A program made the translations under genes and the position numbers. The notes under the pieces were generated by a model. It had not been told where the DNA came from. It saw only the letters and a program-made list of their open reading frames with translations, and did no database searches. From Parcubacteria group bacterium (lineage in GTDB: Bacteria > Patescibacteriota > Minisyncoccia > Moranbacterales > GCA-2747515), in assembly GCA_041660065.1 (NCBI GenBank), contig JBAZXC010000002.1:102866-166865 (forward strand): 64,000 bases of DNA, read 5' to 3'. This document shows, piece after piece, positions 15,982 through 39,824 of this stretch. The stretch's first letter is position 1. Each line of letters starts with the position of its first letter.

Positions 15982-16428
15982 ATGGCAGTGATCGCACTCA
16001 ATAAGCAAGCAAAATTCGATTATGAACTCATTGACCACTATGAGGCGGGTTTGGCATTGTTCGGTCATGAGGTCAAATCGATCAAAACGGGACACATTTC
16101 ACTCAAAGGCGCTTTTGTCACAGTAAAAGGTAGTGAGCTTTATCTCACCAATGCGATGATCCCTCTCTATAAACATGCAGCAAATATCAAAGAGTATGAT
16201 CCAAATCGGTCTCGTAAGCTCCTCGTCAAAAAGTCGGAAATCCGCTCGCTGATCGGCAAAAAACAACAGGCTGGCTTGACATTGGTACCGATTCGTGTTT
16301 ATACTAAGGGAAAGCTGATCAAGCTTGATTTTGCGCTTGCAAAAGGCAAGGCAAAATATGACAAGCGTCAGACGATCAAAAAACGTGAAACTGACCGCAA
16401 TATCACACGCGCATTGCGCAGAGGTTAA
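15982..16428 (+). CDS. smpB: SsrA-binding protein
   Basis: 148 aa with SmpB motifs (NKQAKFDYELIDHYEAGLALFGHEVKSIK, LLVKKSEI). Confidence 0.95.
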   Translation: MAVIALNKQAKFDYELIDHYEAGLALFGHEVKSIKTGHISLKGAFVTVKGSELYLTNAMIPLYKHAANIKEYDPNRSRKLLVKKSEIRSLIGKKQQAGLTLVPIRVYTKGKLIKLDFALAKGKAKYDKRQTIKKRETDRNITRALRRG

Positions 16429-16498: not shown

Positions 16499-16920
16499 GG
16501 GGATGCTTTTAGCTTTCGACAGTTTGTCGTCTGCCGATATGCACGTCGGGCATGTATATTCACCCCGTAAAACTGGTATACACATTGATAAGTGCAAACT
16601 TCATCAACAAAGCAAAAGTAGCATTTGCTAACGCATTTGCTCCATCTTTTGCACCGTCTCTCGCGTAATAAACGCTTGAGCCATCACACAGTCGATATCT
16701 CATAGACTGATCGTGGTGTCATATTATGAGGTTCGTCACATTGGAGTATCATTGCTTCTTTATGACTAAATCTACAATGATAGATCATGGGATTTTTTGA
16801 TCACTTTATCGCCCGTGATCGAACATGTCGATTTGCATCGACACGAAAAGTGCTCTAAACGTGTAAGAAGTATTGTCGGATCAACAAATTTGGACGTGGG
16901 TGCAATTCCCACCATCTCCA
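16499..16920 (+). ncRNA. ssrA: tmRNA (transfer-messenger RNA, ssrA)
   Basis: Lies immediately downstream of smpB. The 5' end GGGGAUGCUUUUAGCUUUCGACAG resembles the canonical tmRNA 5' end. The 3' end has a T-arm-like GTGGG-tgcaatt-CCCAC, then CATCTCC, which pairs with the 5' GGGGAUG to form a 7-bp acceptor stem with a discriminator A; CCA is not encoded. An internal tag frame (gca aac ttc ... ccg tct ctc gcg taa taa) ends in LA plus a double stop. Confidence 0.72.
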
Positions 16921-17081
16921 CAAATTTAGTATATGAGACATGTAGACTTGTAGACCACTAGAAAAAAATCTACATATCTCATAACTTGAAGTACGATATG
17001 ACCTCATTTAAATATTTGGACACATTGTGCTAGTATATATATACTTTACAAACTTTTTACTTTTAACTTTACACTGAATTT

Positions 17082-18840: not shown

Positions 18841-18865
18841 TGTGAAGACCGCTTACAAAAGAAAC

Positions 18866-18910
18866 AGCCTCTCGTCACAACATGATGAGAGGCTGATTTT
18901 TATTATTTTT
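18866..18910 (+). terminator. Rho-independent terminator (9-bp stem cagcctctc/gagaggctg plus T-run); likely bidirectional
   Basis: cagcctctcgtcacaacatgatgagaggctg followed by atttttattattttttt. The reverse strand is also T-rich after the stem. Confidence 0.7.
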
Positions 18911-19090
18911 TTGTGTGTTTTGCGATCGTGTCCCTTGTCAATCGAATAAGTGCATGAAAAGGCAACCAGAGCCACAGTGTGCGCTCCAGCCATTTACCGA
19001 TGATCTGGTTGATATTTGTATATTGTGGATTTGCCATGTGTAAAATATAAAAGCCAAGAATATATAGCTTTTATTATATCACAGAATTCA

Positions 19091-19999
19091 TTACTGCTGT
19101 ATGTCCTGCGCTGTGCGATTACGTTTTTTGACCAATCGCACGATTACTTCTCCGAGCGATACAATATAAAGAAATACCACAATGCCTGCTGATACGAGAA
19201 ACCCTATTCTTATCGCCCCACTTTGGAAATCCGTACCAATTGCCAACACATGTACAACAACGAGCGCAAAAACGGCAACATGCAAAAAATGCAATCCTCT
19301 CCACAGTTTCTGTGGCAACTTTGCACGTAATAATGATGTGATGATCAAAATGATCATTATATACAACGCGATGATGCCCCATGCAATTGCATGCACATTG
19401 ATCACATCGGGATTTGCTGTAAATGGCACCAAAACCTCTATAAGTGACAAGTGTACAAATGTATCAAACATGAGCACAAGTCCATGCACGAAAATAAAGG
19501 CAAGAGCAAGAAATGAAAAATAGATATGCATATCGAGCTTGTAAATCGGCGCGACAAATCTTTTGAGAAATGGATTGCGAAATGACAGACCAAAAAAGGT
19601 CACTAGCCACAAGAGCACATAGGCCACAATGCCCGTTGCACGAGAAAAATACCATGAGATTGGTGCTCTCTCTGCTGTTGTGTCTGGAACCGTTTCTGCA
19701 AATTGAGTCACCAGCGGATCAGACGCATCGAGCGGATTAGTCCCATTAAGCACCTCCACACCATCAAAAAATCCATCATCATCCGTATCCGGATCATTGC
19801 TATCTGTGCCAAAAATTTGCACCTCTCCCTTATCGGTCAGTGCATCAAGGTCAGTATCAACGATTGGCTCTGTTCCATAATCTACCTTTTCTTGTGCATA
19901 TACAGACCCTGCGATCATCATACTCAAAAAGAACACTACACTAACGCACAATATTTTGTTGTATATCTTCTGTTGCATATATCGTATTATTTTTATCAA
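19091..19999 (-). CDS. Secreted/membrane protein: signal peptide, TSP type-3-like Ca-binding motif, and a C-terminal ferric-reductase-like (MsrQ/YedZ-type) bis-heme transmembrane domain
   Basis: Signal peptide LCVSVVFFLSMMIAGSVYA. DSNDPDTDDDGFFDGVE fits the DxDxDGxxD pattern. TM helices carry His pairs (H-x13-H: HIYFSFLALAFIFVH; HFLHVAVFALVVVH) typical of the FRD heme-b fold. The start overlaps apbE by 59 nt, so the real start may be the Met at about 19978. Confidence 0.55.
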   Translation of the reverse strand: MIKIIRYMQQKIYNKILCVSVVFFLSMMIAGSVYAQEKVDYGTEPIVDTDLDALTDKGEVQIFGTDSNDPDTDDDGFFDGVEVLNGTNPLDASDPLVTQFAETVPDTTAERAPISWYFSRATGIVAYVLLWLVTFFGLSFRNPFLKRFVAPIYKLDMHIYFSFLALAFIFVHGLVLMFDTFVHLSLIEVLVPFTANPDVINVHAIAWGIIALYIMIILIITSLLRAKLPQKLWRGLHFLHVAVFALVVVHVLAIGTDFQSGAIRIGFLVSAGIVVFLYIVSLGEVIVRLVKKRNRTAQDIQQ

Positions 20000-20909
20000 T
20001 AATGATCGCTTTGATGTGATGATCCTGTGCGTATTGCATGCCTTTATCCATGCCCATCAAAAATATCGTTTTTGCCCATACATCCGCCATCTCCACCGAT
20101 CGCGCAATCACCGTAACAGTAGAGAGATCGAACGCTGACATTCCTTCATTTTTTGGATCGATCAAGTGATGTCTTTTTTGATCTCCGATGATCCATTGTC
20201 TGCGCGTCACACCAGACGTTGCAAGTCCCTCTCCATCCACACACAGCGATATTTGTGCATCCTTAAGCCCTTCTATGCCAACGTACCATGATTTTTCCGC
20301 AACATCCTTGCCTTCTACCCACATATCCCCTCCTGCATCGATGATATAACCTTCGCAACGTCCGCGCAAAAATGAACGTGCCTGATCGACCACCCATCCT
20401 TTTACAATACCAGACAGATCGATCTTTTGGTGTATGAGAATCATCGACGCCTCCTTATTGACCACAATATCTCCTGTGATCATTTGTCTGTCGCGATGCG
20501 AGATATTCACATTCTGTGATTTTTTGTGATCAAGCTTATCTATGTAAAAATCATGGTCATAACCCGATTGGATAAGTGCATCATAGATCCGCGGATCAAA
20601 ATATCCTCCCGTTCTGTCATGATAGTATATTGCCCGCTCCACCACATCAATGAATTCTTCCGACACCTGCACATATGCACCCACATGGTTATTTACGAAA
20701 GACAATTCGCTCGCCACGCGAAACCTGCTGAATATCTGTTCCATTTTTTTAAAAAACACTTCGATATTTTCCATGATGTGCGTGATCTCCTCCTTTCCCA
20801 ATTCTTCACTGACGATATCAATTACCACATCCGTACCCATCGCTTTGAATGATCCACTCCAGCGCTCGTTATTTTTCATATACATCAACAATGCCATTAC
20901 GATCATCAT
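19941..20909 (-). CDS. apbE: FAD:protein FMN transferase (flavin transferase ApbE family)
   Basis: Motifs MGTDVVIDI, IDAGGDMWVEG, LATSGVTRRQW and HHLIDPKNEG match the ApbE family. Confidence 0.8.
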   Translation of the reverse strand: MMIVMALLMYMKNNERWSGSFKAMGTDVVIDIVSEELGKEEITHIMENIEVFFKKMEQIFSRFRVASELSFVNNHVGAYVQVSEEFIDVVERAIYYHDRTGGYFDPRIYDALIQSGYDHDFYIDKLDHKKSQNVNISHRDRQMITGDIVVNKEASMILIHQKIDLSGIVKGWVVDQARSFLRGRCEGYIIDAGGDMWVEGKDVAEKSWYVGIEGLKDAQISLCVDGEGLATSGVTRRQWIIGDQKRHHLIDPKNEGMSAFDLSTVTVIARSVEMADVWAKTIFLMGMDKGMQYAQDHHIKAIIIDKNNTIYATEDIQQNIVR

Positions 20910-21246
20910 CCTTTACAATAAAATGGTCATTTATGCTGGGATATTGATCTGTATCATCAAAAATACCATCGCCATCCGTATCAGCTTGTGTTGTGGTAAC
21001 GATTTCTTTTGACACCGTTTCGCTTACAGTCACTATTTCTGTAACAACTGTTTCTTTTGTAACAGCATCGTCAGATCGTTTCTCATCGTCCTCCTCATCC
21101 TCATATTCTTCCTGGTCATCTTCTTCATTCTCCTGTGCAACAACGCGCTGTGCGAAAGAACTATACATAACAACAAAAAAAACAAGGCTCAATACAAGTG
21201 ACATAATTACAGCTATTTTTTTGGATAAATGTTTCATAATATACAC
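20869..21246 (-). CDS. Secreted acidic protein with a TSP3/EF-hand-like Ca-binding motif
   Basis: Signal peptide, then a poly-acidic tract (QENEEDDQEEYEDEEDDEK), then DTDGDGIFDDTD. Confidence 0.5.
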   Translation of the reverse strand: MYIMKHLSKKIAVIMSLVLSLVFFVVMYSSFAQRVVAQENEEDDQEEYEDEEDDEKRSDDAVTKETVVTEIVTVSETVSKEIVTTTQADTDGDGIFDDTDQYPSINDHFIVKDDDRNGIVDVYEK

Positions 21247-21256
21247 AATGAAAAAA

Positions 21257-21601
21257 TTATGACGTTTTCGTTTTTTTTGTCGCTTTTGGTGTTGTTGTGA
21301 CAGTCGGTGTCACAATCCTTTGTGGAGTAACTGTTGTCGTAGTGGTTTGTTGTGTCACCTGTTCCGTTGGTACGTGTGCTGATTTTTGCAATACTATATC
21401 CCTCTCTTTGGCAAAATCCCGTTGTGCGGTTACAATATCACTCTGCATCAATTGATCCATATAATCTTTGATATCACTGTATGTTTTGAGATTTTTTTGT
21501 TGTTCATAATGCACACGAAAACCCAAAACAGCTGCAAGTGTAGCAAATACGCTTGCAAAGAATATCGCGATCTTCAATGGAACATTTTGCATTTTCATCA
21601 T
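21257..21601 (-). CDS. Membrane-anchored hypothetical protein with a Thr-rich low-complexity tail
   Basis: N-terminal TM (IAIFFASVFATLAAVLGF). C-terminus is TTTTTVTPQRIVTPTVTTTPKATKKTKTS. Confidence 0.45.
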   Translation of the reverse strand: MMKMQNVPLKIAIFFASVFATLAAVLGFRVHYEQQKNLKTYSDIKDYMDQLMQSDIVTAQRDFAKERDIVLQKSAHVPTEQVTQQTTTTTVTPQRIVTPTVTTTPKATKKTKTS

Positions 21602-22675: not shown

Positions 22676-24535
22676 TCAAGACTTCACTATTTTTGTGATC
22701 TGTTTTATGATCGCCTCTATAGATAATCCGGCATCCGTAAGTACCTCTTCACGAGATCCGTGTGTCAAAAAAACATCCGGCAAACCCATATTATGCACAC
22801 GCACATCAATGCCCTGTGCCAATACGCATTCATTTACAGCGCTTCCCGCTCCGCCCATTACAGCATTATCTTCCACCGTTACAATGTGGCGATGCGTCTT
22901 GCATAATCTCTTGATCACTTGTGTATCCAATGGCTTGACGAATCGCATATTTACGAGTGTTGCATCCATTGTCTCCGCAACGACCATACACCGATCCACC
23001 ATTGCGCCAAATGCAAGGATCACCACATTTTTTCCTTTACGCAATACCATCGCTTTGCCTAAAACGATCTCACTAGTATTTCCTTTTAATTGTTCTTGAC
23101 CACTGCATCGTGGATAGCGCACTGCACTCGGGCCGACGTGGTCATATGCAAATTGCAACATCTTTTTACTCTCCTCCAAATCTGCCGGCGCAAGGATGAC
23201 CATGTTTGGTATGCATCGCAAAAACGACAGATCAAAACTGCCTGCGTGTGTCGCACCATCCGGACCCACAATGCCGGCCCGATCGATCGCAAACATCACA
23301 TCGAGATTTTGCAAAGCAACATCGTGAATGAGCTGATCGTATGCGCGTTGCAAAAATGTTGAGTAGATTGCTACTACCGGTTTAACACCACCTGTCGCAA
23401 GTCCGGCGGCAAATGTCACAGCATGTTGTTCTGCAATACCCACATCATGATGACGCTCCGAATATTTTTGATGGAATTCTTTGAGACCGGAACCCTCCAG
23501 CATTGCCGGCGTGATCGCATGAAGCCTTTTGTCCTTCTTTGCCGCCTCACAAACCCACTGCGCAAACACATCGGTATATGTTTTATTTTTTTTCTTTTGA
23601 TCGCTCTTTTCTCCGGTTTGCGGATCGAACGGTCCCACAGCGTGCAACGACGTGCGATCATTCTTTGCATGGATATATCCTTTTCCCTTCGTTGTTACAA
23701 TATGCAGAAAGCGCGGTCCTTTGATGTCTTTGAGATTATGCAACACCTCAGCAAGCGTTTTGACATCATGTCCATCAATTGGTCCGAAATACAAAAATCC
23801 CAATTCTTCAAAAAGCGTCCCCGGCGTCAGCATGCCTTTCGCATAAAGTTCCGTTTTGCGCGCAAGCTCGTGGATCGTTGGAGATTTGCGCGAGAGAAGG
23901 TCTTTGCTTTCCTTGCGCAAACGCTGAAATCGCCGCGATGAAATAAGCCGTGTTAAATATTTGTGCATTGCGCCTACATTTGGTGAGATCGACATTTTAT
24001 TATCATTGAGAACCACCAACACGTCCGCCATTACATCACCCGCATGATTGAGCGCCTCAAATGCCATACCACCCGTAAGCGCACCATCCCCGATCACGGC
24101 AATATGTTTTTCTTTTTTATCCTTTGACGCAAGTGCCATACCAACCGCCGCACTGATTGATGTTGTAGAGTGTCCCACACCAAAAGCATCATGATCACTC
24201 TCTTCTCTTTTGGGAAATGGCGAGAGTCCATCCTTCTGACGGATCGTGCACAGATAATCTTTGCGTCCCGTAAGGATCTTGTGTGGATATGCCTGATGAC
24301 CCACATCCCAGATAATTTTATCTCGCGGTGAATTGAACACGTGGTGCAAAGCAACCGTTAATTCCACAACACCAAGATTGGAACCAAAATGCCCACCCGT
24401 ACGTGCTACAGATTCAATGAGAAAATCACGCACTTCATCACACAAGATACACAGTTGTTCATGTGTGAGTTTTTGTACGTCCCCCGGACCATTGATCTTA
24501 TGCAGAATTTTATATTTTTCCGAACTTTGAGACAT
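22676..24535 (-). CDS. dxs: 1-deoxy-D-xylulose-5-phosphate synthase
   Basis: DXS N-terminus MSQSSEKYKILHKINGPGDVQKL, plus a TPP motif (GDGALTGGMAFEALNHAG) and a transketolase-like C-terminus. The start is the ATG at 24535. The track's 59-aa N-terminal extension (to 24712) overlaps the sufS promoter and start and is rejected. Confidence 0.95.
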   Translation of the reverse strand: MSQSSEKYKILHKINGPGDVQKLTHEQLCILCDEVRDFLIESVARTGGHFGSNLGVVELTVALHHVFNSPRDKIIWDVGHQAYPHKILTGRKDYLCTIRQKDGLSPFPKREESDHDAFGVGHSTTSISAAVGMALASKDKKEKHIAVIGDGALTGGMAFEALNHAGDVMADVLVVLNDNKMSISPNVGAMHKYLTRLISSRRFQRLRKESKDLLSRKSPTIHELARKTELYAKGMLTPGTLFEELGFLYFGPIDGHDVKTLAEVLHNLKDIKGPRFLHIVTTKGKGYIHAKNDRTSLHAVGPFDPQTGEKSDQKKKNKTYTDVFAQWVCEAAKKDKRLHAITPAMLEGSGLKEFHQKYSERHHDVGIAEQHAVTFAAGLATGGVKPVVAIYSTFLQRAYDQLIHDVALQNLDVMFAIDRAGIVGPDGATHAGSFDLSFLRCIPNMVILAPADLEESKKMLQFAYDHVGPSAVRYPRCSGQEQLKGNTSEIVLGKAMVLRKGKNVVILAFGAMVDRCMVVAETMDATLVNMRFVKPLDTQVIKRLCKTHRHIVTVEDNAVMGGAGSAVNECVLAQGIDVRVHNMGLPDVFLTHGSREEVLTDAGLSIEAIIKQITKIVKS

Positions 24536-24566
24536 ATGCGCTATTTTAACACAATTTGAAAATCTT

Positions 24567-24595
24567 TTGACATTTTTCAACACATAAAATACAGT
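24567..24595 (+). promoter_or_regulatory. Promoter for sufS (TTGACA, 17-nt spacer, TACAGT) placed for a leaderless transcript
   Basis: TTGACA tttttcaacacataaaa TACAGT acaagat ATG. Only 7 nt separate the -10 from the start codon. Confidence 0.45.
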
Positions 24596-24602
24596 ACAAG
24601 AT

Positions 24603-25829
24603 ATGAATACAATAGCAAAAAAGGAGGATTTCCCTATTTTTACACAAAACCCACAACTTGTATACCTCGACTCCGCCGCGACAGCATTGACGCCACAGAT
24701 CGTCATCGACAAATTGTGCGAATATTACACTACATACAACGCCAATATTGCACGCGGTCTTTATGCGATTAGCACGCGTGCAACGATTGAATTTGAAGCG
24801 TCACGACAAGTTGTTGCTCAATTTATCAATGCACGCGAAAATGAGATCGTTTTTACTTCCGGCACCACGATGAGTCTCAATATGATCGCATATGGGTTAG
24901 CCGATACGATCACAGCGCAAAACAATATCGTTACGACCGCCATGGAGCATCATGCGAATTTTATCCCATGGCAACAACTCTGCGAAAGAACAGGTGCCCA
25001 ATTTCGTGTTGCCACGATCACAGAAGACGGAGAGATTGATCAAAATCATCTACTAGACCTCATTGACGCCGATACGTCCGTTGTTGCATTGACCCATGTA
25101 TCCAATGTTCTCGGAACGATCAATCCGATCAAGGAGATCATCGCAAAAATCCGAACAAAAAAACCTGACACACTGATTGTCATCGATGCCGCACAGTCGA
25201 TCGCACACTTACCGATCGATGTTGCTGATATTGATTGTGATTTCCTCGCTTTTTCCATGCATAAAGTTTTTGGCCCGACTGGTGTCGGCATCCTCTATGG
25301 CAAAAAGAGCTCCCTCGAAAAACTCCGACCCGTTTTTACCGGTGGCGACATGATCGAAAGCGTGTCCACTTGCACCACAACATTTCGCGAACTCCCGCAT
25401 CGATTAGAAGCCGGTACACCACATATTGCCGGCGTGATCGCAACCAAAACCGCACTTGACTATCTCTCACGCATTGGTTATCAAGCAATTCGTGCACATG
25501 AAGAAGATCTCCTTGCATATTGTATCTCGCAATTGAAAGAACATTTCGGAGAGACAATTACAATTATCGGACCAAAAGAGATCGAAAAACGTTCCGGGCT
25601 TATCAGTTTTACGTTTGGCAATTTCCACCCGCACGACATCGCCACGATCCTTGATGACAGCGCCTCTGTCGCGATTCGTGCCGGACAACACTGCACGATG
25701 CCACTCCACATCGAAACCCTCCACATCAACGCTACCGCTCGCGCGAGCTTCTCTATTTACAACACCAGAGAGGACATCGACGCTCTTATCACCGGCCTCA
25801 AAAATGTTTCCGATACACTGTCAAAATAA
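24603..25829 (+). CDS. sufS: Cysteine desulfurase (class V aminotransferase, SufS/NifS-like)
   Basis: 408 aa. PLP-lysine region SMHKVFGPTGVGILY. Followed by sufU and sufT homologues. Confidence 0.85.
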   Translation: MNTIAKKEDFPIFTQNPQLVYLDSAATALTPQIVIDKLCEYYTTYNANIARGLYAISTRATIEFEASRQVVAQFINARENEIVFTSGTTMSLNMIAYGLADTITAQNNIVTTAMEHHANFIPWQQLCERTGAQFRVATITEDGEIDQNHLLDLIDADTSVVALTHVSNVLGTINPIKEIIAKIRTKKPDTLIVIDAAQSIAHLPIDVADIDCDFLAFSMHKVFGPTGVGILYGKKSSLEKLRPVFTGGDMIESVSTCTTTFRELPHRLEAGTPHIAGVIATKTALDYLSRIGYQAIRAHEEDLLAYCISQLKEHFGETITIIGPKEIEKRSGLISFTFGNFHPHDIATILDDSASVAIRAGQHCTMPLHIETLHINATARASFSIYNTREDIDALITGLKNVSDTLSK

Positions 25830-25891
25830 TACTTCCTATGACCATTTTTCTTTTCCTACCACCTACAACCTAACTCTTACCACCTATTTAT

Positions 25892-26269
25892 ATGAACATT
25901 TACCAAGAAAAAATTCTCGACCATTACCACAATCCGCGCAACGCCGGCACGATTGACGCACCTACACATAAATGTTGTGCCGACAATCCTACATGCGGAG
26001 ATAAGATCTGTGTCACACTCATGATCGATGACGATCATATCACTGATGTAAAATTTACCGGTGACGGTTGCGCCATCTCTCAAGCGGCAGCGTCACTTGT
26101 CACAGAAAAGATCAGTGGCAATACAGTTGTAAACGCACTAAAACTCACACGCAATGATATTACAGAGATGCTTGGCGTAGAGATCGGCATCGGTCGCATT
26201 AAATGTGCTCTCCTCGGCATCGAAACCATTCAAAAAGCCATTCAATGCGGACAGGTCGATAAAAACTAA
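25892..26269 (+). CDS. sufU: Fe-S cluster assembly scaffold (SufU/IscU-like, NifU N-terminal domain)
   Basis: Conserved Cys ligands in GDKICVTLMID, FTGDGCAISQAAASL and RIKCALLG. Confidence 0.75.
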   Translation: MNIYQEKILDHYHNPRNAGTIDAPTHKCCADNPTCGDKICVTLMIDDDHITDVKFTGDGCAISQAAASLVTEKISGNTVVNALKLTRNDITEMLGVEIGIGRIKCALLGIETIQKAIQCGQVDKN

Positions 26270-26315
26270 ACCGTTCGTCATTTTTTCTAAAAAACCCAAG
26301 ATTCTATAACATCTT

Positions 26316-26615
26316 ATGTACATCGACAAAGACTTATTACAAAAACTACACACCGTTATCGATCCGGAGCTCAACATCCCCATCACCGACATGGGACTGA
26401 TCTATGGCATCAAACAAGTTGACGATACTGTCCACGTCACCATGACACTCACAACGATCGGCTGTCCGCTCTATGACGTGATCCATGACGAGATCGTGCG
26501 CACACTCACCACAGACCCTTCGATCAAAGACGTGCAAATTGAACTCACATTTGATCCCCCATGGACACCGGACATGATGACCGACGCCACTAAAATGGAA
26601 ATTGGATTTTTGTAG
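26316..26615 (+). CDS. sufT: DUF59 / SufT-like Fe-S assembly protein (MIP18 family)
   Basis: IDPELNIPITDMGLIYGI...TLTTIGCPL is characteristic of DUF59. Confidence 0.7.
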   Translation: MYIDKDLLQKLHTVIDPELNIPITDMGLIYGIKQVDDTVHVTMTLTTIGCPLYDVIHDEIVRTLTTDPSIKDVQIELTFDPPWTPDMMTDATKMEIGFL

Positions 26616-26637
26616 CATTTACTTTTTATGCCAAAAA

Positions 26638-26661
26638 CAAAAAAATTGTCATTCCTGCGAA
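26638..26661. repeat. 24-bp palindromic element gtcattcctgcgaaggcaggaatc (stem attcctgc/gcaggaat); likely a bidirectional terminator and the left copy of a pair flanking the GIY-YIG gene
   Basis: 8-bp perfect stem with a gaag loop. A-rich upstream and T-rich downstream on both strands. A near-identical copy sits at 27145-27168. Confidence 0.8.
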
Positions 26662-26678
26662 GGCAGGAATCTTTACAT

Positions 26679-26948
26679 TTACAAAGTTTCATATAGATCC
26701 TTCCAATGCGGGTTTTCTTTCTCAATCAAATTGATTTTCCAATCTCTTTTCCATTTTTTTAATTGCTTTTCACGCACCAGCGCAGAGTGAACATCAGTCG
26801 TTTGTTCAAAATACATCAACCTATGCACAAAATATTTCTGCGTGAATCCGTCTGCTATATTATTTTTGTGCTCCCACACTCTTTTTTGAAGATTGGATGT
26901 TACGCCAATATACAATACACCGTTTTTCTTGCTTGCTAAAATATACAC
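26679..26948 (-). CDS. GIY-YIG nuclease superfamily protein (UPF0213/YhbQ-like)
   Basis: YILASKKNGVLYIGVTSNLQKRVWEHK is a classic GIY-YIG motif. GTG start; the frame is closed by a stop 3 codons upstream. Confidence 0.8.
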   Translation of the reverse strand: MYILASKKNGVLYIGVTSNLQKRVWEHKNNIADGFTQKYFVHRLMYFEQTTDVHSALVREKQLKKWKRDWKINLIEKENPHWKDLYETL

Positions 26949-26956
26949 GAAATATT

Positions 26957-27116
26957 ATACCATCCTCAACTAACCACTTCTCATAAGTCGCAGTAAAATC
27001 TTGCGCAAAAACTGGAGAAAAAATACGAAGCATATCTGGATATATGTAGTATTTTTTATCCTGTTTTTGCCAAGATTTTCAAGACTTGGTGGGGAGTGGT
27101 TAGTTGAGGATGGTAT
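26957..27116. repeat. 21-bp perfect inverted repeat (ataccatcctcaactaaccac / gtggttagttgaggatggtat) bracketing a 118-bp segment just upstream of the GIY-YIG start
   Basis: Exact reverse-complement arms at 26957-26977 and 27096-27116. Confidence 0.9.
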
Positions 27117-27144
27117 TACTTCATTTTTTTGATATGAAAGAAAG

Positions 27145-27168
27145 ATTCCTGCCTGCGCAGGAATGACG
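27145..27168. repeat. Second copy (inverted orientation) of the 24-bp palindromic element: gattcctgcctgcgcaggaatgac
   Basis: Its reverse complement gtcattcctgcgcaggcaggaatc differs from the 26638-26661 copy only in the loop. Confidence 0.8.
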
Positions 27169-27204
27169 CGTAGAGGGTTTGCTTATATCTTTTCTAAATC
27201 CCTA

Positions 27205-27330
27205 CTGTGTCGGATTTCACTGGGTTTGCCCTGTGAAATTACTTCATACCGACCGAGTCGGATTTAACTGGGTTTACCCTGTTAAATTACTTTGTACCAA
27301 CTGCGTTGGATTTAACAGGGTCAACCCATT
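27205..27330. repeat. About 2.6 tandem copies of a 48-bp repeat overlapping the 3' end of ispG
   Basis: Unit A (27205-27252) and unit B (27253-27300) share 40 of 48 positions. A partial third unit runs 27301-27330. This repeat generates the spurious plus ORF 27179-27589 with VGFHWVCPVKLL/VGFNWVYPVKLL repeats. Confidence 0.85.
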
Positions 27331-28540
27331 TCCCTTTTTCTTTGATCAGTGCAACCAATGCATCAATTGCGTCTTCCTCCGGAAGATTTCTTTGTACCAC
27401 TTCTTTGCCATAGTACAAACTGATCTTACCTGGTGCGCCACCGACATAGCCAAAATCTGCATCCGCCATTTCACCCGGGCCGTTGACGATGCACCCCATC
27501 ACGGCGATCTTTACACCGGTCAGATGTCCCAGTTTTTGCTTGATCTTTTTTGTCACGGATGCAATGTCAAAAAGTGTGCGACCGCATGATGGGCAGGAAA
27601 TAAATTCTGCTTTGGAAATACGTCGTTTTGTCGCTTGCAGAATCGTAAAACATACAGGGATCTCATCCTCTGGTGGCTCTGTGAGAGAGACGCGCAACGT
27701 ATCACCGATTCCCTCCAAGAGAAGCGTGCCGATCCCAATCGTTGATTTGGCACGTCCATCCTCTTCGCTCCCCGCTTCCGTCACACCGAGATGGATTGGG
27801 TAATCCATATTTTCCTCATCCATTTTATGCGCAAGTAATCTGTTTGCCTCGATCATTGCCGTCGGGTCAGATGCTTTGATCGCGACGACGATATTGTGAT
27901 AATCATTTTTCTGAAACACACGCAGATATTCCATCACGCTTTCCACAAGCCCATAAGGCGTATTGCCATACTTGCCCAACACGCGTCCGGAAAGCGACCC
28001 CCAATTCGCGCCAATGCGAATCGGTTTTTGTGTCTTTTTCAATTCAGCGATAAATGGTTTTAGTCCCTCCTCAATCCTCTCCAACTCTTGTTGATATTCT
28101 CTATCAGTCAAAATTTTGTCACCACTACCACGACTGTCCAACAAATTTCCCGGATTCAATCGGATTTTATCTGCATATATAAGCGCTTCAAACGCCGCCG
28201 CTTTGTCAAAGTGAATATCCGCAACGATCGGCACGGTGCAATGATGCTTTTTTTGCAAAATATCTTTGATCTCTTTGAGCGCGTGCACATGTTTGACCGT
28301 CGGCGTCGTGATCCGCACCAGCTCCGATCCGGCATCCACGCATCGCATAATTTGCGCAACTGTCGCCGCAATATCAAGCGTGTCCGTATTGGTCATTGTT
28401 TGTACGCGAATTGGATGATCACCTCCAATGCCTACATTTCCCACCATCACAACGCGTGTCTTACGTCTCGGTAATAATGCTGCAAATTGATCTGTGTTAT
28501 TCATAAGCGCCTCATTTAATAAATTACCTTCGTTTGACAA
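27287..28540 (-). CDS. ispG: 4-hydroxy-3-methylbut-2-en-1-yl diphosphate synthase (IspG/GcpE)
   Basis: 417 aa. N-terminal TIM-barrel region (RRKTRVVMVGNVGIGGDHPIRVQTMTNT) and a C-terminal [4Fe-4S] Cys cluster (ISCPSCGRT...GCIVNGPGE). Confidence 0.95.
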   Translation of the reverse strand: MSNEGNLLNEALMNNTDQFAALLPRRKTRVVMVGNVGIGGDHPIRVQTMTNTDTLDIAATVAQIMRCVDAGSELVRITTPTVKHVHALKEIKDILQKKHHCTVPIVADIHFDKAAAFEALIYADKIRLNPGNLLDSRGSGDKILTDREYQQELERIEEGLKPFIAELKKTQKPIRIGANWGSLSGRVLGKYGNTPYGLVESVMEYLRVFQKNDYHNIVVAIKASDPTAMIEANRLLAHKMDEENMDYPIHLGVTEAGSEEDGRAKSTIGIGTLLLEGIGDTLRVSLTEPPEDEIPVCFTILQATKRRISKAEFISCPSCGRTLFDIASVTKKIKQKLGHLTGVKIAVMGCIVNGPGEMADADFGYVGGAPGKISLYYGKEVVQRNLPEEDAIDALVALIKEKGKWVDPVKSNAVGTK

Positions 28541-36501: not shown

Positions 36502-38985
36502 TTATTTCCAAAAATGTTCCGCTGGCGATTGCGGTGACGGTTGTACGAATACAGAACGCGCAGCTACTTCTCTCTCAATAATGTCGCGATCGCGACCATA
36601 TTTGAGTCGTGATAATTCTTTGATCGGGTCAACGATGTCCGGATTACCTTCTGTCGGAAGGGGTGCTTTCATATTGAACGGTGCCGTTGAAATATTATTG
36701 AGAAGCAATCGCGCAAAATAATTATAATTATCCACATTGATCAGATCCTGCGCAGTAAAGACCGGCGCAAACTGTTTTTCGAGAAATTCTGCATCCTCTG
36801 CACCGACGCGCAATACTGCCAACGAGCCCACGTTACCAAAAACCGCCTTGGAAATGCCCTCAGACAATTGTCCGATAAACTGATGTGCAATGATAAGTGC
36901 GAGCCGATATTTACGCGCCTCAGACAAAATTTGTGCAATTGAATCCGTCGTTACATTCTGAAACTCATCGATATACAAATAAAAATCTTTTCGATCTTTT
37001 TCCGGCATGTCCACACGACCCAATGCCGCCATCAATAGCTTTCCCACGATCACCATACCAAGCAAATGACTGTTTGTCTCACCAATTTTTCCTTTAGATA
37101 GATTGATCAGCAGGATCTTTTTTGTATCCATGATATTGCGAAAATCCAACGTGCTTTTTTGCTGAGAGATGATCGGACGCATCATGTCATTGGAAAGAAA
37201 TGGCGTGAGCTTTGATGTAATATATGGCACCATATTTGCGAGAGCGGCTTCACCGCCGGCTTTTTCCGCTTCATTCATCCAAAAATCTTTGACTACCATA
37301 TTGCGACAACGCGACAATTTCATGCGACGGAAATTTTCATCAGCCAAAACTTTCGGGATTTCCATAAGCGTTGACCCCGACTCCGGATCGTCCATGATCA
37401 GAAGCATGGCATTGCGCATGTACTGTTCAAACATCGGGCCGCCGGTTGCTTTGAGATCATAGAGCTTATCAAAGATATTGATGATCTCATTGATCACAAA
37501 TGTTTTTTCTTCCGGCTTATTGTATTCCAACATATTCAAACCGAAAGGACGTTCTGTATCCGATGGATCAAAATACACCACATCCTCTGCCCGCTCTTTT
37601 GGTACAGCAGTCAGGATATCCTCGATCGCCTCTCCATGCGGATCCACAAAGCACAATCCGTGTCCATTGCGCACATCCTGCTTTGCCATTTCTTGCAACA
37701 ATGTTGATTTACCGGTACCCGTTTGTCCAATCACATAAAGATGGCGACGGCGATCATTTTGTGACAGATAAATGTCCGTATTGACACCGCGATAATCATT
37801 CCATCCCAAATACACACCTTCTTTCGGCACATCGGTTGGTGGTGGCGCACTCCCTGCTTTGAGCCATTTGATCTTTGGCGTTTCTGTTGTCGATATAGGA
37901 AAATGGAAAACGCTCGCAATTTCTTCCACACCCAAAATTACACTCGCATCCTCATCAAATGCACGAAAAATATAGTTGAATGCTTGTTTTTTTGTTCTTG
38001 TGCCGAAACGTTTGATCAAAAAATGATTCACACCGGGATTTTCAAACTGCGAAAAAGCATTTTCCATATGCGACAAAATTTCCTCCGCACGCTCCTGCGT
38101 GCCTGCAGAAGCCACGAGACGAATGTTGGCAAGAAACGCTGCTTTTGATGTTTTTGATTCAATTGCCTTGACCAACTCCTGCTCTTCCGGCGTCAGTTGC
38201 ACTCGCTTATCCATTGCATGTTGTTCAGAAACTTTTTTTGTTCCAAAGGCTTTCCCTGCTTCTTTGAAGACTTCCCCGGCAATGCTCCTATTTACATCTT
38301 TCAGTTGCTTTCCTTGTTGCATTTCATGTGCAAATTTACGCCCTTTTGCACGCCACCCAGATCCAACATCATGCAGAACAATCTGAATACTTGCACCTTC
38401 ATCATGCGAATTTAATTTACTAAACGCCGTCGTAATTTCACTGAGCGGATCCTTCTCCATACGCTCATATGTACGAACCGGCAATGCGCTATGCCTCTTC
38501 AACGACACAACGCCCATCGCTGTTTTTGATCCCGGCGTAAATATTGTATAGTCCTCCACTTTCTCGATCGATGAATCAGAAAAATAACTATGCACTTGTT
38601 TTTCAAGAGAAGATCGATATTTTTTTGGCACAGAAATGTAAAAAAATATTTCTTCTTTTCCTGCAGGATTTGCGATCTCAAGAGTGATCGTCGGTTTGCC
38701 ATACACAAAAGCCCTCCATGAGATCTTTTTATCTTTTAATTGCGCAAGGGAAATAAGAAGCTGTTCCATCACGCCGATTTCTTCTTTCCACATCTCCGGA
38801 TTTTGCCGACCTTTTTCATTGCGGTGTCTATTTTGTGCAACGCGAATCACTTCCAGATCTTCATTCATTGATCTGTTCACAATAATTCGATACCCAAAGA
38901 TACTTCTGAGCACTAAAAATGCTCCCGTAATCACACTGACCACCGCAGACATGCCAATCAAAACAATAAATATAAGACCAAACAT
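36502..38985 (-). CDS. FtsK/HerA/VirD4/VirB4-superfamily P-loop ATPase with an N-terminal TM segment (putative conjugation- or T4SS-type ATPase)
   Basis: N-terminal hydrophobic segment. Walker A HLYVIGQTGTGKSTLL followed by FVDPHGE. Walker B YLYIDEFQNV. C-terminal LALIIAHQFIGQL. This architecture resembles T4CP/VirB4/TcpA-like ATPases. Confidence 0.6.
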   Translation of the reverse strand: MFGLIFIVLIGMSAVVSVITGAFLVLRSIFGYRIIVNRSMNEDLEVIRVAQNRHRNEKGRQNPEMWKEEIGVMEQLLISLAQLKDKKISWRAFVYGKPTITLEIANPAGKEEIFFYISVPKKYRSSLEKQVHSYFSDSSIEKVEDYTIFTPGSKTAMGVVSLKRHSALPVRTYERMEKDPLSEITTAFSKLNSHDEGASIQIVLHDVGSGWRAKGRKFAHEMQQGKQLKDVNRSIAGEVFKEAGKAFGTKKVSEQHAMDKRVQLTPEEQELVKAIESKTSKAAFLANIRLVASAGTQERAEEILSHMENAFSQFENPGVNHFLIKRFGTRTKKQAFNYIFRAFDEDASVILGVEEIASVFHFPISTTETPKIKWLKAGSAPPPTDVPKEGVYLGWNDYRGVNTDIYLSQNDRRRHLYVIGQTGTGKSTLLQEMAKQDVRNGHGLCFVDPHGEAIEDILTAVPKERAEDVVYFDPSDTERPFGLNMLEYNKPEEKTFVINEIINIFDKLYDLKATGGPMFEQYMRNAMLLIMDDPESGSTLMEIPKVLADENFRRMKLSRCRNMVVKDFWMNEAEKAGGEAALANMVPYITSKLTPFLSNDMMRPIISQQKSTLDFRNIMDTKKILLINLSKGKIGETNSHLLGMVIVGKLLMAALGRVDMPEKDRKDFYLYIDEFQNVTTDSIAQILSEARKYRLALIIAHQFIGQLSEGISKAVFGNVGSLAVLRVGAEDAEFLEKQFAPVFTAQDLINVDNYNYFARLLLNNISTAPFNMKAPLPTEGNPDIVDPIKELSRLKYGRDRDIIEREVAARSVFVQPSPQSPAEHFWK

Positions 38986-39013
38986 AAAAATCGATTGTTG
39001 TACTTAAAAACAA

Positions 39014-39451
39014 TTATTGTTCAATGAACCCCTTTGCAATAAGTGCTTGATAAAACTCTTCGGCGCGCATCCGATCATGCAATTGATCCAAAACATAATA
39101 ATCCTCCACCCGTTGTGCCACCTTTACCGCATGTGCCACACCTTTTGTCATTGCCAAATCCATGAGATGCGATATTTGCGACTCACGATCTGCAATTTGA
39201 TGCAATGCGCTTGCATCTTGCGTTATTGTGTCATCATCATGTTGATGCGATTGCGATTGTACTTGTGACAAAATCTGCGTGTACACTGTATCATTTTGCG
39301 CACGCGTTTTTTCCCGTGCATTCTCTTGTACGGGTTCTTGCTCTTCTTGAGCGTGCGATCCTTTTGCATCTTGCACGCCAAAACGGCGCTCCAGACTGAC
39401 AAATTCTGGATTGAGTTTTTCACCACTTGGCGGATTTTGTTGATCTGGCAT
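39014..39451 (-). CDS. Hypothetical acidic protein (145 aa), operon partner of the ATPase
   Basis: 28-nt gap to the downstream ATPase and 23-nt gap to the upstream gene. No motif recognised. Confidence 0.45.
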   Translation of the reverse strand: MPDQQNPPSGEKLNPEFVSLERRFGVQDAKGSHAQEEQEPVQENAREKTRAQNDTVYTQILSQVQSQSHQHDDDTITQDASALHQIADRESQISHLMDLAMTKGVAHAVKVAQRVEDYYVLDQLHDRMRAEEFYQALIAKGFIEQ

Positions 39452-39474
39452 ATTTCTAACTATTCATGATTGAC

Positions 39475-39798: not shown

Positions 39799-39824
39799 AA
39801 TTTTGTTTTAATTAATTGTCTTTA

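What the first reader, a model, noticed from the sequence alone, without database searches (positions are those of the whole stretch)
19091..21601. ApbE flavin-transferase operon with a ferric-reductase-like bis-heme membrane protein and two secreted proteins bearing TSP3-type Ca-binding motifs
Four tightly packed and partly overlapping minus-strand genes: a Thr-rich membrane protein; a secreted poly-acidic protein with DTDGDGIFDDTD; ApbE; and a protein combining signal peptide, DSNDPDTDDDGFFDGVE and an FRD/MsrQ-like 6-TM domain with H-x13-H and H-x12-H heme ligands. ApbE-linked extracytosolic electron-transfer modules are known, but I could not find the usual FMN-binding domain or a [ST]GA[ST] flavinylation site in the neighbours. 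The flavinylation target and electron acceptor of this module are therefore unknown. The fusion of a TSP3 calcium-binding region to an FRD domain is unusual.
Basis: partly seen in the sequence, partly recalled or inferred. Interest (0 to 1): 0.65.

Follow-up and report, generated by a model that had tools for sequence, protein, structure and literature searches.

The report
Membrane reductase operon with flavin leash
A tiny-genome Parcubacteria bacterium carries a conserved gene set for passing electrons across its membrane, and the "missing" flavin carrier is probably the small Thr-rich membrane protein, whose last four residues look like a cut-down flavin-attachment tag.

Summary
Four packed minus-strand genes encode: a single-pass Thr-rich protein (A); a secreted poly-acidic protein with two Ca-loop motifs (B); ApbE; and a TSP3-plus-ferric-reductase-domain (FRD) protein whose four heme-ligand histidines are invariant in 77 homologues.

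The module is not a one-off. ApbE sits next to this FRD type in 40 of 41 loci with enough flank. An A-type gene is present in 36 of them, and the five exceptions carry variant or frameshifted A genes.

- Every A-type protein ends in [S/T]-x-x-Ser-COOH (window: T-K-T-S). Across 39 distinct tails, Ser at -1 and S/T at -4 are invariant. The series runs from TKTS through SKAS, SRGS and SGGS to the canonical SGAS-COOH in cultured Amycolatopsis sp. AA4. This is the likely, non-canonical flavinylation site.
- None of these ApbEs can carry a signal peptide, although the tail is predicted to lie outside the cell.

Best reading: a NOX/MsrQ-like transmembrane reductase whose outer acceptor is an FMN tethered to a disordered "leash". 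It is a new variant of the known MsrQ-like flavinylation systems. All evidence is computational. The final electron acceptor (possibly ferric iron) is inferred only.

The parts
21257..21601 (-). Gene A. A 114-aa single-pass membrane protein: short basic N-terminus, TM helix at about aa 11-28, a helical stretch, a Thr/Pro-rich low-complexity tail, and the conserved C-terminus ...KKTKTS. Proposed flavinylated 'leash' subunit.
   Evidence: ORF. No Pfam or NCBIfam family. Annotated 'hypothetical protein WC819_03120'. Orthologues sit in the same position in all CPR-type loci. In L006, L117 and L150 the same TM plus tail is fused behind a cytosolic FNR-like NAD(P)H module.
21260..21271 (-). The last four codons of gene A, Thr-Lys-Thr-Ser, immediately before the stop. 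Candidate non-canonical ApbE flavinylation tag, [S/T]-x-x-Ser-COOH.
   Evidence: In 39 distinct tails, position -1 is Ser in 100% and position -4 is S/T in 100%. The pattern is enriched near FRD genes: 61 of 1213 nearby same-strand ORFs against 6 of 2479 elsewhere. In the window it is unique to gene A apart from one 57-aa ORF taken to be spurious. Codons vary while the residues are kept. Amycolatopsis sp. AA4 has the canonical SGAS-COOH.
20869..21246 (-). Gene B. A 125-aa secreted protein: signal peptide, poly-Glu/Asp tract, a Thr/Val-rich stretch, and a C-terminal module with two EF-hand/TSP3-like Ca loops.
   Evidence: ORF. Nineteen orthologues align. No Pfam family in any of them. Only 9 database relatives, all 'hypothetical'. 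The AF2 model is mostly disordered, pLDDT 58.9.
20872..20982 (-). Conserved C-terminal module of B (aa 89-125): DTDGDGIFDDTD...P...IVKDDDRNGIVDVYEK.
   Evidence: Invariant or nearly invariant positions: D89, D91, D93, G94, D100, P103, D113, N117, G118, I119, D121. The module occurs only where the FRD carries the TSP3 insert.
19941..20909 (-). ApbE-family FAD:protein FMN transferase. Likely start is the ATG at 20879. No signal peptide or lipobox.
   Evidence: Pfam ApbE 169 bits. Best solved relatives are T. maritima TM1553 (1vrm) and Listeria FmnB (7esa). In the printed alignment the query's ATSG, R-x-x and HH-x-x-DP stretches align with FmnB's; my count of that alignment, which is not a computed residue map, places FmnB's catalytic His and Arg there. 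In about 14 CPR-type clusters the whole stop-to-'AMGT' region is only 13-35 aa and has no hydrophobic stretch.
19091..19999 (-). TSP3-FRD protein, 302 aa from the TTG start; the ATG at 19978 is more likely. N-terminal signal/TM0 helix, extracytoplasmic TSP3 Ca-binding insert, and five further TM helices carrying two b-heme sites.
   Evidence: Pfam Ferric_reduct plus TSP3_bac. AF2 model pLDDT 81.5 with helices at 2-30, 114-138, 151-178, 202-223, 230-254 and 262-301. Best fold matches are SpNOX, STEAP1/2 and NOX5.
19715..19864 (-). TSP3-type Ca-binding insert (aa 46-95) between TM0 and the FRD core: DTDLDALTDKGE and DTDDDGFFDGVE loops.
   Evidence: Pfam TSP3_bac with 2 stretches. Invariant D48, D50, D52, D56, G58, E59, D71, T72, D73, D75, D79, G80, E82. 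Superposes on the Bap B-domain Ca motifs (7c7u/7c7r) at 0.6-0.9 A rmsd.
19130..19660 (-). FRD core (aa 114-290). Heme ligands: His158 (19526-19528), His172 (19484-19486), His237 (19289-19291), His250 (19250-19252). Subfamily-specific outer-loop G255-T256-D257 (19229-19237).
   Evidence: The four His are 100% conserved in 77 distinct homologues. G255 is 100% conserved, D257 97%, and T256 is S/T in 91%. Coordinates.
18903..19037 (-). Conserved 44-aa ORF immediately downstream of FRD. Possible fifth gene of the operon in this sub-lineage only.
   Evidence: Nearly identical products in L001 and L004. No Pfam family. Not found in more distant clusters.
18865..18895 (.). 13-bp-stem hairpin between the convergent genes. 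Probable end of the minus-strand transcription unit.
   Evidence: Terminator-like scan. A consensus match only.

Best explanation
The locus encodes a NOX/MsrQ-like transmembrane electron-transfer module whose flavin carrier is a membrane-tethered, disordered 'leash' rather than a folded FMN-binding domain.

Shown:
- The FRD protein has the fold and the four invariant His ligands of a bis-heme b cytochrome, with NOX-type H-x13-H / H-x12-H spacing.
- ApbE is a complete family member whose HH-x-x-DP and R-x-x stretches align with Listeria FmnB's.
- ApbE, the FRD and an A-type protein form a conserved triad in CPR bacteria and in high-GC Gram-positives.
- In relatives, a cytosolic NAD(P)H module is fused to the FRD C-terminus (L008/P0017), fused to the A N-terminus (L006, L117, L150), or encoded alongside as NuoF-like plus ferredoxin (Amycolatopsis). 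The window has no such module.

Inferred:
- Electrons enter from a cytosolic donor, cross via the inner and outer hemes, and are taken up by an FMN that ApbE has phospho-ester-linked to the C-terminal Ser of protein A. The motif is T-K-T-S-COOH, a relaxed terminal version of [S/T]-G-A-[S/T].
- A's TM helix docks on the FRD. Its 50-200-residue Ser/Thr/Pro tail lets the flavin swing between the outer heme and an external acceptor.
- Because ApbE has no signal peptide, flavinylation most likely occurs in the cytosol, on the last-made end of A, before the unstructured tail is translocated.
- The secreted poly-acidic protein B and the TSP3 insert of the FRD co-occur. They probably form a Ca-dependent extracellular scaffold or cation trap.
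- The most likely substrate is Fe(III) or another metal cation, for assimilation.
For: FRD identity:
- Pfam hit above cut-off.
- Four His invariant in 77 sequences.
- AF2 model pLDDT 81.5, with best fold hits SpNOX, STEAP and NOX5.

ApbE identity: 169 bits. Its ATSG, R-x-x and HH-x-x-DP stretches align with FmnB's in the printed alignment.

Triad synteny: of 41 distinct loci with at least 2.5 kb upstream, 40 have ApbE and 36 have an A-type gene. The exceptions are Cys-variant tails, a frameshifted A, or a missed call.

Tail motif:
- In 39 distinct tails, -1 is Ser and -4 is S/T in 100%, inside otherwise hypervariable low-complexity sequence.
- Enrichment near FRD genes is 61/1213 against 6/2479.
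- The terminal Ser uses TCN and AGC codons, so selection acts on the peptide.
- The motif series TKTS/TKKS, SKAS/SRAS/SRGS/SKGS, SGGS, SGAS-COOH (Amycolatopsis sp. AA4) merges into the canonical ApbE motif with identical spacing.

Precedent:
- Engineered 7-residue flavin-tags work best at protein termini, D-to-A has only a minor effect, and G-to-A or A-to-V still give about 50% flavinylation (PMC12052999).
- FMN_red substrates carry sites on an unstructured C-terminal extension (PMC11334425).
- Cytosolic ApbEs exist.
- Orphan apbE genomes imply unidentified substrates (PMC8238504).

Topology: FNR-A fusions place A's N-terminus in the cytosol.

Acceptor hint:
- B and its high-GC counterpart B' are poly-Asp/Glu, often His-rich.
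- suf and Fe-S genes lie nearby in the window, L001-L005, L007 and L008.
- MsrQ-like clusters were previously linked to iron uptake.
Against: - The window motif T-K-T-S lacks the Gly-Ala core and the upstream Asp of the defined motif, so recognition by ApbE is unproven.
- ApbE is cytosolic while the tail is predicted to be extracytoplasmic. Pre-export flavinylation has no precedent that I know of.
- The basic C-terminus could instead be a docking or retention signal.
- No ApbE alignment column distinguishes clusters with Gly at -3 from those with Lys/Arg at -3, so there is no co-evolution signal. Power is low, with only 5 Gly-type sequences.
- No complex modelling was possible.
- B is absent from some high-GC clusters, including Amycolatopsis.
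- suf linkage is not general.
- Heme supply in CPR bacteria is unclear (my own knowledge, not tested here).
- The whole genome could not be searched for other ApbE substrates.
Confidence: 0.5

Rival explanations
1. ApbE acts only on the cytosolic side. It either supplies or attaches flavin at the cytosolic face of the FRD (for example near the conserved S/T221), or it acts as an FAD-handling enzyme. The conserved C-terminus of A then has another role: a basic peptide that docks on the FRD outer loop (G-T-D) or on acidic protein B, or a sorting or retention signal.
For: None of about 20 CPR-type ApbEs, nor the high-GC ones, can have a signal peptide. S/T at FRD position 221, at the cytosolic end of TM3, is conserved in 99% of sequences. 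The tail end is Lys/Arg-rich while B is poly-acidic and the FRD loop has an invariant Asp257. Some ApbE-family proteins also hydrolyse FAD (PMC4767422).
Against: S/T221 is also present in E. coli MsrQ (from my own recollection of that sequence, not checked with a tool), which would make it a general family feature. No other cytosolic Ser/Thr is conserved in A or the FRD. This reading does not explain why the tail motif grades into the canonical SGAS-COOH with the same spacing. Both classes of ApbE still transfer FMN to protein substrates.
Confidence: 0.2
2. The real ApbE substrate is a canonical FMN_bind, NqrC or RnfG-type protein encoded elsewhere in the genome. A and B are structural accessories of the cytochrome.
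For: Only 64 kb of a contig of at least 307 kb could be inspected. The window motif is far from D-x-x-[ST]-G-A-[ST].
Against: ApbE is adjacent to this FRD in 40 of 41 loci across distant phyla. No canonical motif occurs in the window or in the cluster genes of the CPR-type loci. Flavinylation components are reported as strikingly under-represented in CPR bacteria (PMC8238504). The Amycolatopsis cluster has no FMN_bind gene but does have A with SGAS-COOH.
Confidence: 0.15
3. It is an MsrQ-MsrP-type system that repairs oxidised methionines in envelope proteins. The FRD acts as MsrQ.
For: Several database sources name relatives 'methionine sulfoxide reductase heme-binding subunit' or 'YedZ'.
Against: No MsrP or molybdoenzyme gene lies in any of the clusters examined. 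The protein has two heme sites with NOX spacing and groups by fold with SpNOX. Relatives carry NAD(P)H-binding modules.
Confidence: 0.03

Closest known systems
'MsrQ-like' flavinylation-associated gene clusters (Meheust et al. 2021, eLife, PMC8238504; Huang et al. 2024, mSystems, PMC11334425)
   Same: An ApbE gene lies next to a PF01794 six-helix, two-heme membrane protein. Relatives carry a C-terminal PF00175 NAD-binding domain or a NuoF-like partner. The proposed role is transmembrane electron transfer to an extracytosolic flavin, possibly for iron reduction.
   Different: Described clusters typically include an FMN_bind (PF04205) gene or fusion, and were selected for a signal peptide on ApbE or the substrate. 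Here there is no FMN_bind and no canonical motif, ApbE lacks a signal peptide, and the partner is a single-pass disordered protein with a terminal [S/T]-x-x-S tag. The CPR form adds a TSP3 insert and protein B. CPR bacteria were reported as under-represented.
Bacterial and eukaryotic NADPH oxidases and ferric reductases (SpNOX, NOX5, NOX2, STEAP)
   Same: Best structural matches. Identical H-x13-H / H-x12-H ligand spacing. Relatives L008/P0017 have the fused FNR-like dehydrogenase domain.
   Different: The window protein has no dehydrogenase domain. Its loop A carries a Ca-binding TSP3 insert. It is coupled to ApbE and a putative covalent FMN carrier on the outside.
Listeria-type extracellular electron transfer (FmnB/ApbE, PplA, Ndh2, EetAB) (PMC9973259)
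   Same: A monoderm cell uses ApbE-attached FMN on a surface-tethered protein as the last membrane-proximal carrier towards external acceptors.
   Different: FmnB is an extracytosolic lipoprotein that needs FAD export. PplA has folded FMN_bind domains with canonical motifs. Membrane crossing uses quinone/Ndh2 and not a bis-heme FRD.
Engineered 'Flavin-tag' (Tong et al. 2021, reviewed in PMC12052999) and the natural FMN_red C-terminal-extension substrates (PMC11334425)
   Same: Short unstructured terminal peptides are sufficient ApbE substrates, and tags work best at a terminus.
   Different: Those tags keep the D-x-x-[ST]-G-A-[ST] motif. The tag here ends exactly at the C-terminus and usually has Lys/Arg and a small residue in place of Gly-Ala.
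Cytosolic ApbE of Klebsiella pneumoniae, which flavinylates a soluble fumarate reductase (cited in PMC12052999)
   Same: An ApbE without a signal peptide that works in the cytosol.
   Different: Its substrate is a cytosolic enzyme with an FMN_bind domain. Here the neighbours are membrane or secreted proteins.

Membership tests
Ferric reductase domain (FRD) superfamily / Pfam PF01794 | Profile match above the curated cut-off | tested here: met
   34.1 bits against a cut-off of 28, covering residues 122-247 over the whole profile.
Ferric reductase domain (FRD) superfamily / Pfam PF01794 | Two His pairs on two helices (H-x13-H and H-x12-H) as bis-heme ligands, conserved in homologues | tested here: met
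   H158, H172, H237 and H250 are invariant in 18 and in 77 distinct sequences.
Ferric reductase domain (FRD) superfamily / Pfam PF01794 | Six-helix fold resembling solved NOX/STEAP transmembrane domains | tested here: met
   AF2 model pLDDT 81.5 with six helices. Top Foldseek PDB hits are SpNOX 8qta/8qt6/8qq7 (probability 1.00, E about 0.02), STEAP1/2 and NOX5. The E-values are weak.
Ferric reductase domain (FRD) superfamily / Pfam PF01794 | Actual binding of two b hemes | not testable with these tools
   Needs spectroscopy of the purified protein.
NADPH oxidase (NOX) proper | C-terminal FAD/NADPH dehydrogenase domain fused to the FRD | tested here: not met
   The window protein ends 12 residues after the last helix, with no PF00175 or PF08022 match. 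The domain is present in relatives P0017/L008.
ApbE FAD:protein FMN transferase (PF02424) | Full-length profile match | tested here: met
   169.1 bits, profile positions 1-266 of 266. The NCBIfam equivalog PRK10461 scores only 66.9 bits against a cut-off of 498, so this is not an E. coli-type orthologue.
ApbE FAD:protein FMN transferase (PF02424) | Catalytic His (Vc His257 / FmnB His273) and FAD/Mg-binding motifs | tested here: inconclusive
   The printed alignment to FmnB 7esa shows ATSG, R-x-x and HH-x-x-DP aligned, and DAGGD is present. The match to FmnB His273 and Arg262 comes from my own count of chain positions plus an assumed offset of about 20 residues. It was read by eye from the alignment, with no computed residue map and no structure check.
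ApbE FAD:protein FMN transferase (PF02424) | N-terminal signal peptide or lipobox (typical of extracytosolic ApbEs, not strictly defining) | tested here: not met
   The stop-to-'AMGT' region is 13-35 aa with no hydrophobic stretch in about 14 CPR-type clusters. The same holds for the high-GC relatives inspected.
MsrQ-like flavinylation-associated cluster (operational definition of PMC8238504) | A PF01794 gene within five genes of an ApbE or FMN-bind gene | tested here: met
   The two genes are adjacent and overlapping.
MsrQ-like flavinylation-associated cluster (operational definition of PMC8238504) | A signal peptide or lipidation site on ApbE, FMN_bind, DUF2271 or DUF3570 in the cluster | tested here: not met
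   ApbE has none, and no FMN_bind, DUF2271 or DUF3570 gene is present. The definition was read.
Canonical ApbE substrate | D-x-x-[S/T]-G-A-[S/T] motif | tested here: not met
   Absent from A, B, the FRD and the whole window. 'DFQSGAI' in the FRD is not conserved. A carries T-K-T-S-COOH: same spacing, but Gly-Ala and Asp are missing. The relative in Amycolatopsis carries S-G-A-S-COOH.
Canonical ApbE substrate | Covalent FMN demonstrated on the Ser/Thr | not testable with these tools
   Needs co-expression, UV-fluorescence SDS-PAGE and mass spectrometry.
Bacterial TSP3 repeat (PF18884) | Profile match above cut-off | tested here: met
   For the FRD protein: 30.5 bits against a cut-off of 25, 2 stretches, with a 0.6-0.9 A fit to the Bap Ca motifs. 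For protein B it is NOT met: no hit at E<=0.01 in any of 19 orthologues, only EF-hand-like D-x-D-x-[DN]-G loops.

The most novel reading that the evidence does not exclude
Protein A is a natural 'flavin-tag' and a new class of ApbE substrate. It has no folded domain, and its FMN is attached to the very last residue, within an [S/T]-x-x-Ser-COOH motif. A cytosolic ApbE flavinylates it before the tail is exported. This would remove the need for FAD export. It would yield a tethered, mobile flavin that shuttles electrons from a bis-heme cytochrome through the cell wall of monoderm bacteria, both CPR and Actinobacteria. It would also overturn the working rule that extracytosolic flavinylation needs a secreted ApbE and the D-x-x-[ST]-G-A-[ST] motif.
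Probability: 0.35. Interest if true: 0.8.

Novelty: new variant of a known kind. Interest (0 to 1): 0.68.

Why it matters
ApbE-dependent flavinylation is treated as the main way bacteria wire redox chemistry outside the cytosol. About 4% of surveyed apbE genomes still have no known substrate, and CPR bacteria were reported to almost lack the system (PMC8238504).

This locus, with about 40 related loci, points to an overlooked substrate class. It would have been missed for three reasons:
- The substrate has no domain.
- It has no canonical motif.
- Its ApbE has no signal peptide.

If the reading is right:
- Flavin-based extracytosolic electron transfer extends to ultra-small episymbiotic bacteria and to many Actinobacteria.
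- The recognition rules of ApbE are redefined, which matters for the flavin-tag labelling technology.
- It raises the possibility that a protein tail is flavinylated in the cytosol and then translocated.

The canonical-looking version (SGAS-COOH) sits in a cultured, genetically accessible genus, Amycolatopsis sp. AA4. The idea can therefore be tested at once.

Tried and rejected
- 'TDFQSGAIR' in the FRD outer loop looked like a near-miss flavinylation motif. It is not conserved in homologues (DFQDGIT, DTSTPIM, DSGEWWM), so it is rejected as chance.
- I tested a programmed frameshift or fusion of B to ApbE as a route for exporting ApbE. The two genes are cleanly separated in L006, L011 and L013, and the gene order differs in high-GC loci. 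Rejected.
- An apparent A-ApbE fusion in L164 (464 aa) is a frame error. The A frame ends ...TSGGS*.
- suf/Fe-S gene linkage as a general functional clue: found only in the window's close relatives and in L007/L008. Kept as a weak hint only.
- Co-evolution between ApbE columns and tail type (Gly against Lys/Arg at -3): no discriminating column. Inconclusive, with only 5 Gly-type sequences.
- The AF2 model of protein B is low-confidence (pLDDT 58.9) and uninformative beyond showing disorder.
- The profile search of 1.84 billion representatives with the full TSP3-FRD alignment was swamped by giant multi-TSP3 proteins. It shows at least 29 full-length single-stretch representatives among the top 150, but gives no clean family size.
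- The first genome scan used TSP3 patterns and returned mostly unrelated TSP3 proteins. The first FRD-core alignment was too divergent for the metagenome scan.
- Regex hits to [ST]GA[ST] in high-GC loci are compositional noise.
- Word-based homologue searches for A and B gave only 5 and 9 relatives.
- The MsrQ-like sheet of the eLife supplement was truncated in the held copy.

Full report
**1. What is in the window**

Between 19091 and 21601 the minus strand carries four tightly packed ORFs.
- A: 21257-21601, 114 aa.
- B: 20869-21246, 125 aa.
- ApbE: 19941-20909, 322 aa. The ATG at 20879 is the more likely start.
- FRD: 19091-19999, 302 aa from a TTG. The ATG at 19978 is more likely.

Pfam assigns ApbE (169 bits), Ferric_reduct (34.1 bits, cut-off 28) and TSP3_bac (30.5 bits, cut-off 25). 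It finds nothing credible for A or B, and NCBIfam adds nothing.

The organism is a Parcubacteria-group MAG. A 100%-identical protein lies on a 307-kb NCBI contig, and gene A is 'hypothetical protein WC819_03120'. Upstream on the same strand lie SpoU methylase, a YgjP-like protein and Dxs. Downstream are a conserved 44-aa ORF and a strong hairpin.

**2. The cytochrome**

- His158/His172 (x13) and His237/His250 (x12) are invariant in 18 aligned sequences, including actinobacterial ones. They are also invariant in 77 distinct homologues collected later.
- An AF2 model (pLDDT 81.5) shows an N-terminal signal/TM0 helix, a loop carrying the TSP3 insert, and five more helices.
- Its best solved neighbours are SpNOX, STEAP1/2 and NOX5. 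The TSP3 piece superposes on the Ca motifs of the Bap B domain.
- Charge distribution and the signal-like N-terminus put the TSP3 insert outside the cell and the short C-terminus inside. This is the NOX topology without the dehydrogenase domain.
- A subfamily-specific G255-(T/S)256-D257 motif follows the outer-heme histidine.

**3. The module is conserved well beyond this genome**

Look-ups of homologues gave the same A-B-ApbE-FRD order at 60-85% identity (L001-L005) and at 35-40% identity (L006-L008). A genome scan added L009-L013. A metagenome scan with the FRD core added 74 loci. HMMs built from the cluster proteins classified the neighbours.

Among 41 distinct loci with at least 2.5 kb upstream:
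- 40 have ApbE within 4 kb.
- 36 have an A-type gene.
- The five exceptions with ApbE carry Cys-containing tail variants (L107, L113, L150), a frame error (L164) or a missed call (L154).

The low-GC (CPR-type) loci all have TSP3 on the FRD and the two-loop module on B. The high-GC loci have neither. Their order is often ApbE-B'-A'-FRD, with a poly-Asp/His B'. The core is therefore ApbE + FRD + A. B and TSP3 are a co-varying, CPR-specific addition.

**4. The electron-input side varies**

- L008/P0017 fuse an FNR-like NAD-binding domain to the FRD C-terminus.
- L006, L117 and L150 fuse an FNR-like module to the N-terminus of A.
- Amycolatopsis sp. AA4 encodes NuoF-like plus ferredoxin genes next to the FRD.
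- The window has no such module in the operon, nor among the larger ORFs I scanned across its 64 kb. Its donor is unknown.

The FNR-A fusions fix A's N-terminus in the cytosol. With a single TM helix, its tail lies outside.

**5. The candidate flavinylation site**

No canonical D-x-x-[ST]-G-A-[ST] exists in the four proteins or in the window. The FRD's 'DFQSGAI' is not conserved.

Every A-type protein, however, ends in a fixed pattern.
- In 16 distinct CPR tails, -4 is always Thr and -1 is always Ser. Position -3 is mostly Lys/Arg.
- In 23 distinct tails from other loci, -4 is Ser/Thr, -3 is Lys/Arg/Gly/His, -2 is Gly/Ala/Ser/Thr/Ile, and -1 is always Ser.
- The preceding 50-200 residues are hypervariable Ser/Thr/Pro/Ala/Gly.
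- The pattern occurs in 61 of 1213 same-strand ORFs near FRD genes, against 6 of 2479 elsewhere. In the window it occurs in gene A and in one other ORF of 375, a 57-aa ORF that I take to be spurious.
- Codons differ while residues are kept. The terminal Ser uses TCA/TCT/TCC/TCG and AGC. The gene that follows A also differs between lineages. The constraint is therefore on the peptide and not on a ribosome-binding site.
- The tetrapeptides form a series: TKTS, TKKS, TKSS, TRTS, TTVS, then SKAS, SRAS, SRGS, SKGS, SRSS, then SGGS, then SGAS-COOH in Amycolatopsis sp. AA4.
- The last member is the canonical ApbE motif core, and the spacing between the first S/T and the terminal Ser is the same throughout.

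Published work shows that ApbE modifies short unstructured tags, best at termini. It also shows that D-to-A has little effect and that G-to-A or A-to-V still give about half-flavinylation (PMC12052999). FMN_red substrates carry sites on disordered C-terminal extensions (PMC11334425). The 2021 survey explicitly left orphan ApbEs unexplained.

I conclude that A is the most likely flavinylation target, with FMN on the terminal Ser. This is inference, not demonstration.

**6. The unexplained point: ApbE is cytosolic**

In about 14 CPR-type clusters the entire in-frame region between the upstream stop codon and the conserved 'AMGT' start of the domain is 13-35 residues. It contains no hydrophobic stretch. 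The remaining CPR-type ApbEs, read by eye in the same call, and the high-GC ApbEs that could be read also start directly at the domain.

The 2021 survey removed ApbEs without signal peptides. That explains why this system was not described.

Two readings remain:
- (a) ApbE modifies the C-terminus of A in the cytosol, where FAD is available, before the unstructured tail is translocated. A terminal tag on a disordered tail is what such a route would need.
- (b) ApbE works on the cytosolic face, and the tail motif does something else.

I favour (a) because of the motif series, but it has no precedent that I know of.

**7. Protein B and the acceptor**

B has a signal peptide, a poly-acidic tract and a 40-residue module with two EF-hand-like loops: D-x-D-x-D-G...D, then D-x-x-x-N-G-I-x-D-x-x-E. 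It matches no Pfam family, has few database relatives and is predicted to be largely disordered.

Its module co-occurs strictly with the FRD's TSP3 insert, which suggests a Ca-mediated contact or a shared partner. Acidic, often His-rich, B/B' proteins would bind metal cations. Together with the earlier link of MsrQ-like clusters to iron uptake, and the Fe-S and MEP genes beside the window's operon, this makes Fe(III) reduction the most plausible activity. I put that at no more than about one in three. Superoxide formation or reduction of a host-derived acceptor cannot be excluded.

**8. Comparison with known systems, and novelty**

The locus works like the 'MsrQ-like' flavinylation-associated systems and like NOX-type oxidoreductases. 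It fails two parts of the operational definition of the former: there is no signal peptide on a flavinylation component and no FMN_bind gene. It lacks the dehydrogenase domain of the latter.

I found no paper in the held library that links ApbE to Patescibacteria or describes a terminal-tag substrate of this kind. I rate it a new variant of a known kind.

It is the conserved terminal tag on A combined with a signal-peptide-less ApbE.

**9. Limits**

- Everything is sequence-based.
- No multimer modelling, whole-genome scan or experiment was possible.
- ORF calls in high-GC metagenome contigs are approximate.
- MAG labels such as 'KSB1' and 'Bdellovibrionales' are given as the records state them.

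Noticed in passing
window 18903-19037 (-): A conserved 44-aa ORF (MANPQYTNINQIIGKWLERTLWLWLPFHALIRLTRDTIAKHTKK) lies directly downstream of the FRD gene. Its product is nearly identical in L001 and L004, although the neighbouring proteins are only 60-85% identical. It has no Pfam family. It may be a small membrane subunit or a regulator specific to this sub-lineage.
   Followed up: partly
window 19919-19999 (-): The public annotation starts the FRD gene at Met27 (276 aa). That removes the N-terminal signal/TM0 helix, which all longer homologues keep. The ATG at 19978 (Met8) or the TTG at 19999 fits better.
   Followed up: partly
window 16499-16923 (+): A tmRNA gene (Rfam 118 bits; ARAGORN tag peptide ANFINKAKVAFANAFAPSFAPSLA) lies immediately after smpB (15982-16428).
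   Followed up: yes
window 22676-28540: The operon sits among Fe-S-related and MEP-pathway genes: dxs (22676-24712, -), sufS-like Aminotran_5 (24603-25829, +), NifU_N/sufU (25892-26269, +) and ispG/GcpE (27287-28540, -). Similar suf or ferredoxin neighbours occur at L007 and L008 but not in most other loci.
   Followed up: partly
window 45827-49257 (+): Two adjacent PMT_2 (protein O-mannosyltransferase-like) membrane proteins. They could glycosylate Ser/Thr-rich surface tails such as that of protein A. No link was tested.
   Followed up: no
window 36502-45686 (-): Two large ORFs without any Pfam match (39825-43523, 1232 aa; 43620-45686, 688 aa) lie beside a TrwB/VirD4-like and HerA-like ATPase (36502-38985). 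This may be a secretion or conjugation-type apparatus.
   Followed up: no
L091 1983-3482 and 3585-3806: In one CPR-type locus the same C-terminal tag appears on two further proteins just upstream of the cluster: a 499-aa Big_7/fn3 surface protein ending ...GTTKKS, and a 73-aa single-pass protein ending ...STTKVS. This suggests the tag is portable.
   Followed up: partly
L106, L107, L113, L150 (tails of A-type genes): A sub-group of high-GC loci replaces the terminal Ser pattern with Cys-containing ends (...CTGSKCP, ...CVGSRCH, ...ASKSC). The [S/T]-[K/R] pair is kept, two residues from the C-terminus. The meaning is unknown; a disulfide or a metal site is possible.
   Followed up: no
L163 (Amycolatopsis sp. 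AA4, CP024894.1, 6468299-6478862): A cultured actinomycete carries the minimal version of the system: A (92 aa, ...TGSGAS), ApbE, FRD (187 aa), a NuoF-like protein and a ferredoxin. No B protein or FMN_bind gene was called in the cluster. This is a ready experimental model.
   Followed up: partly
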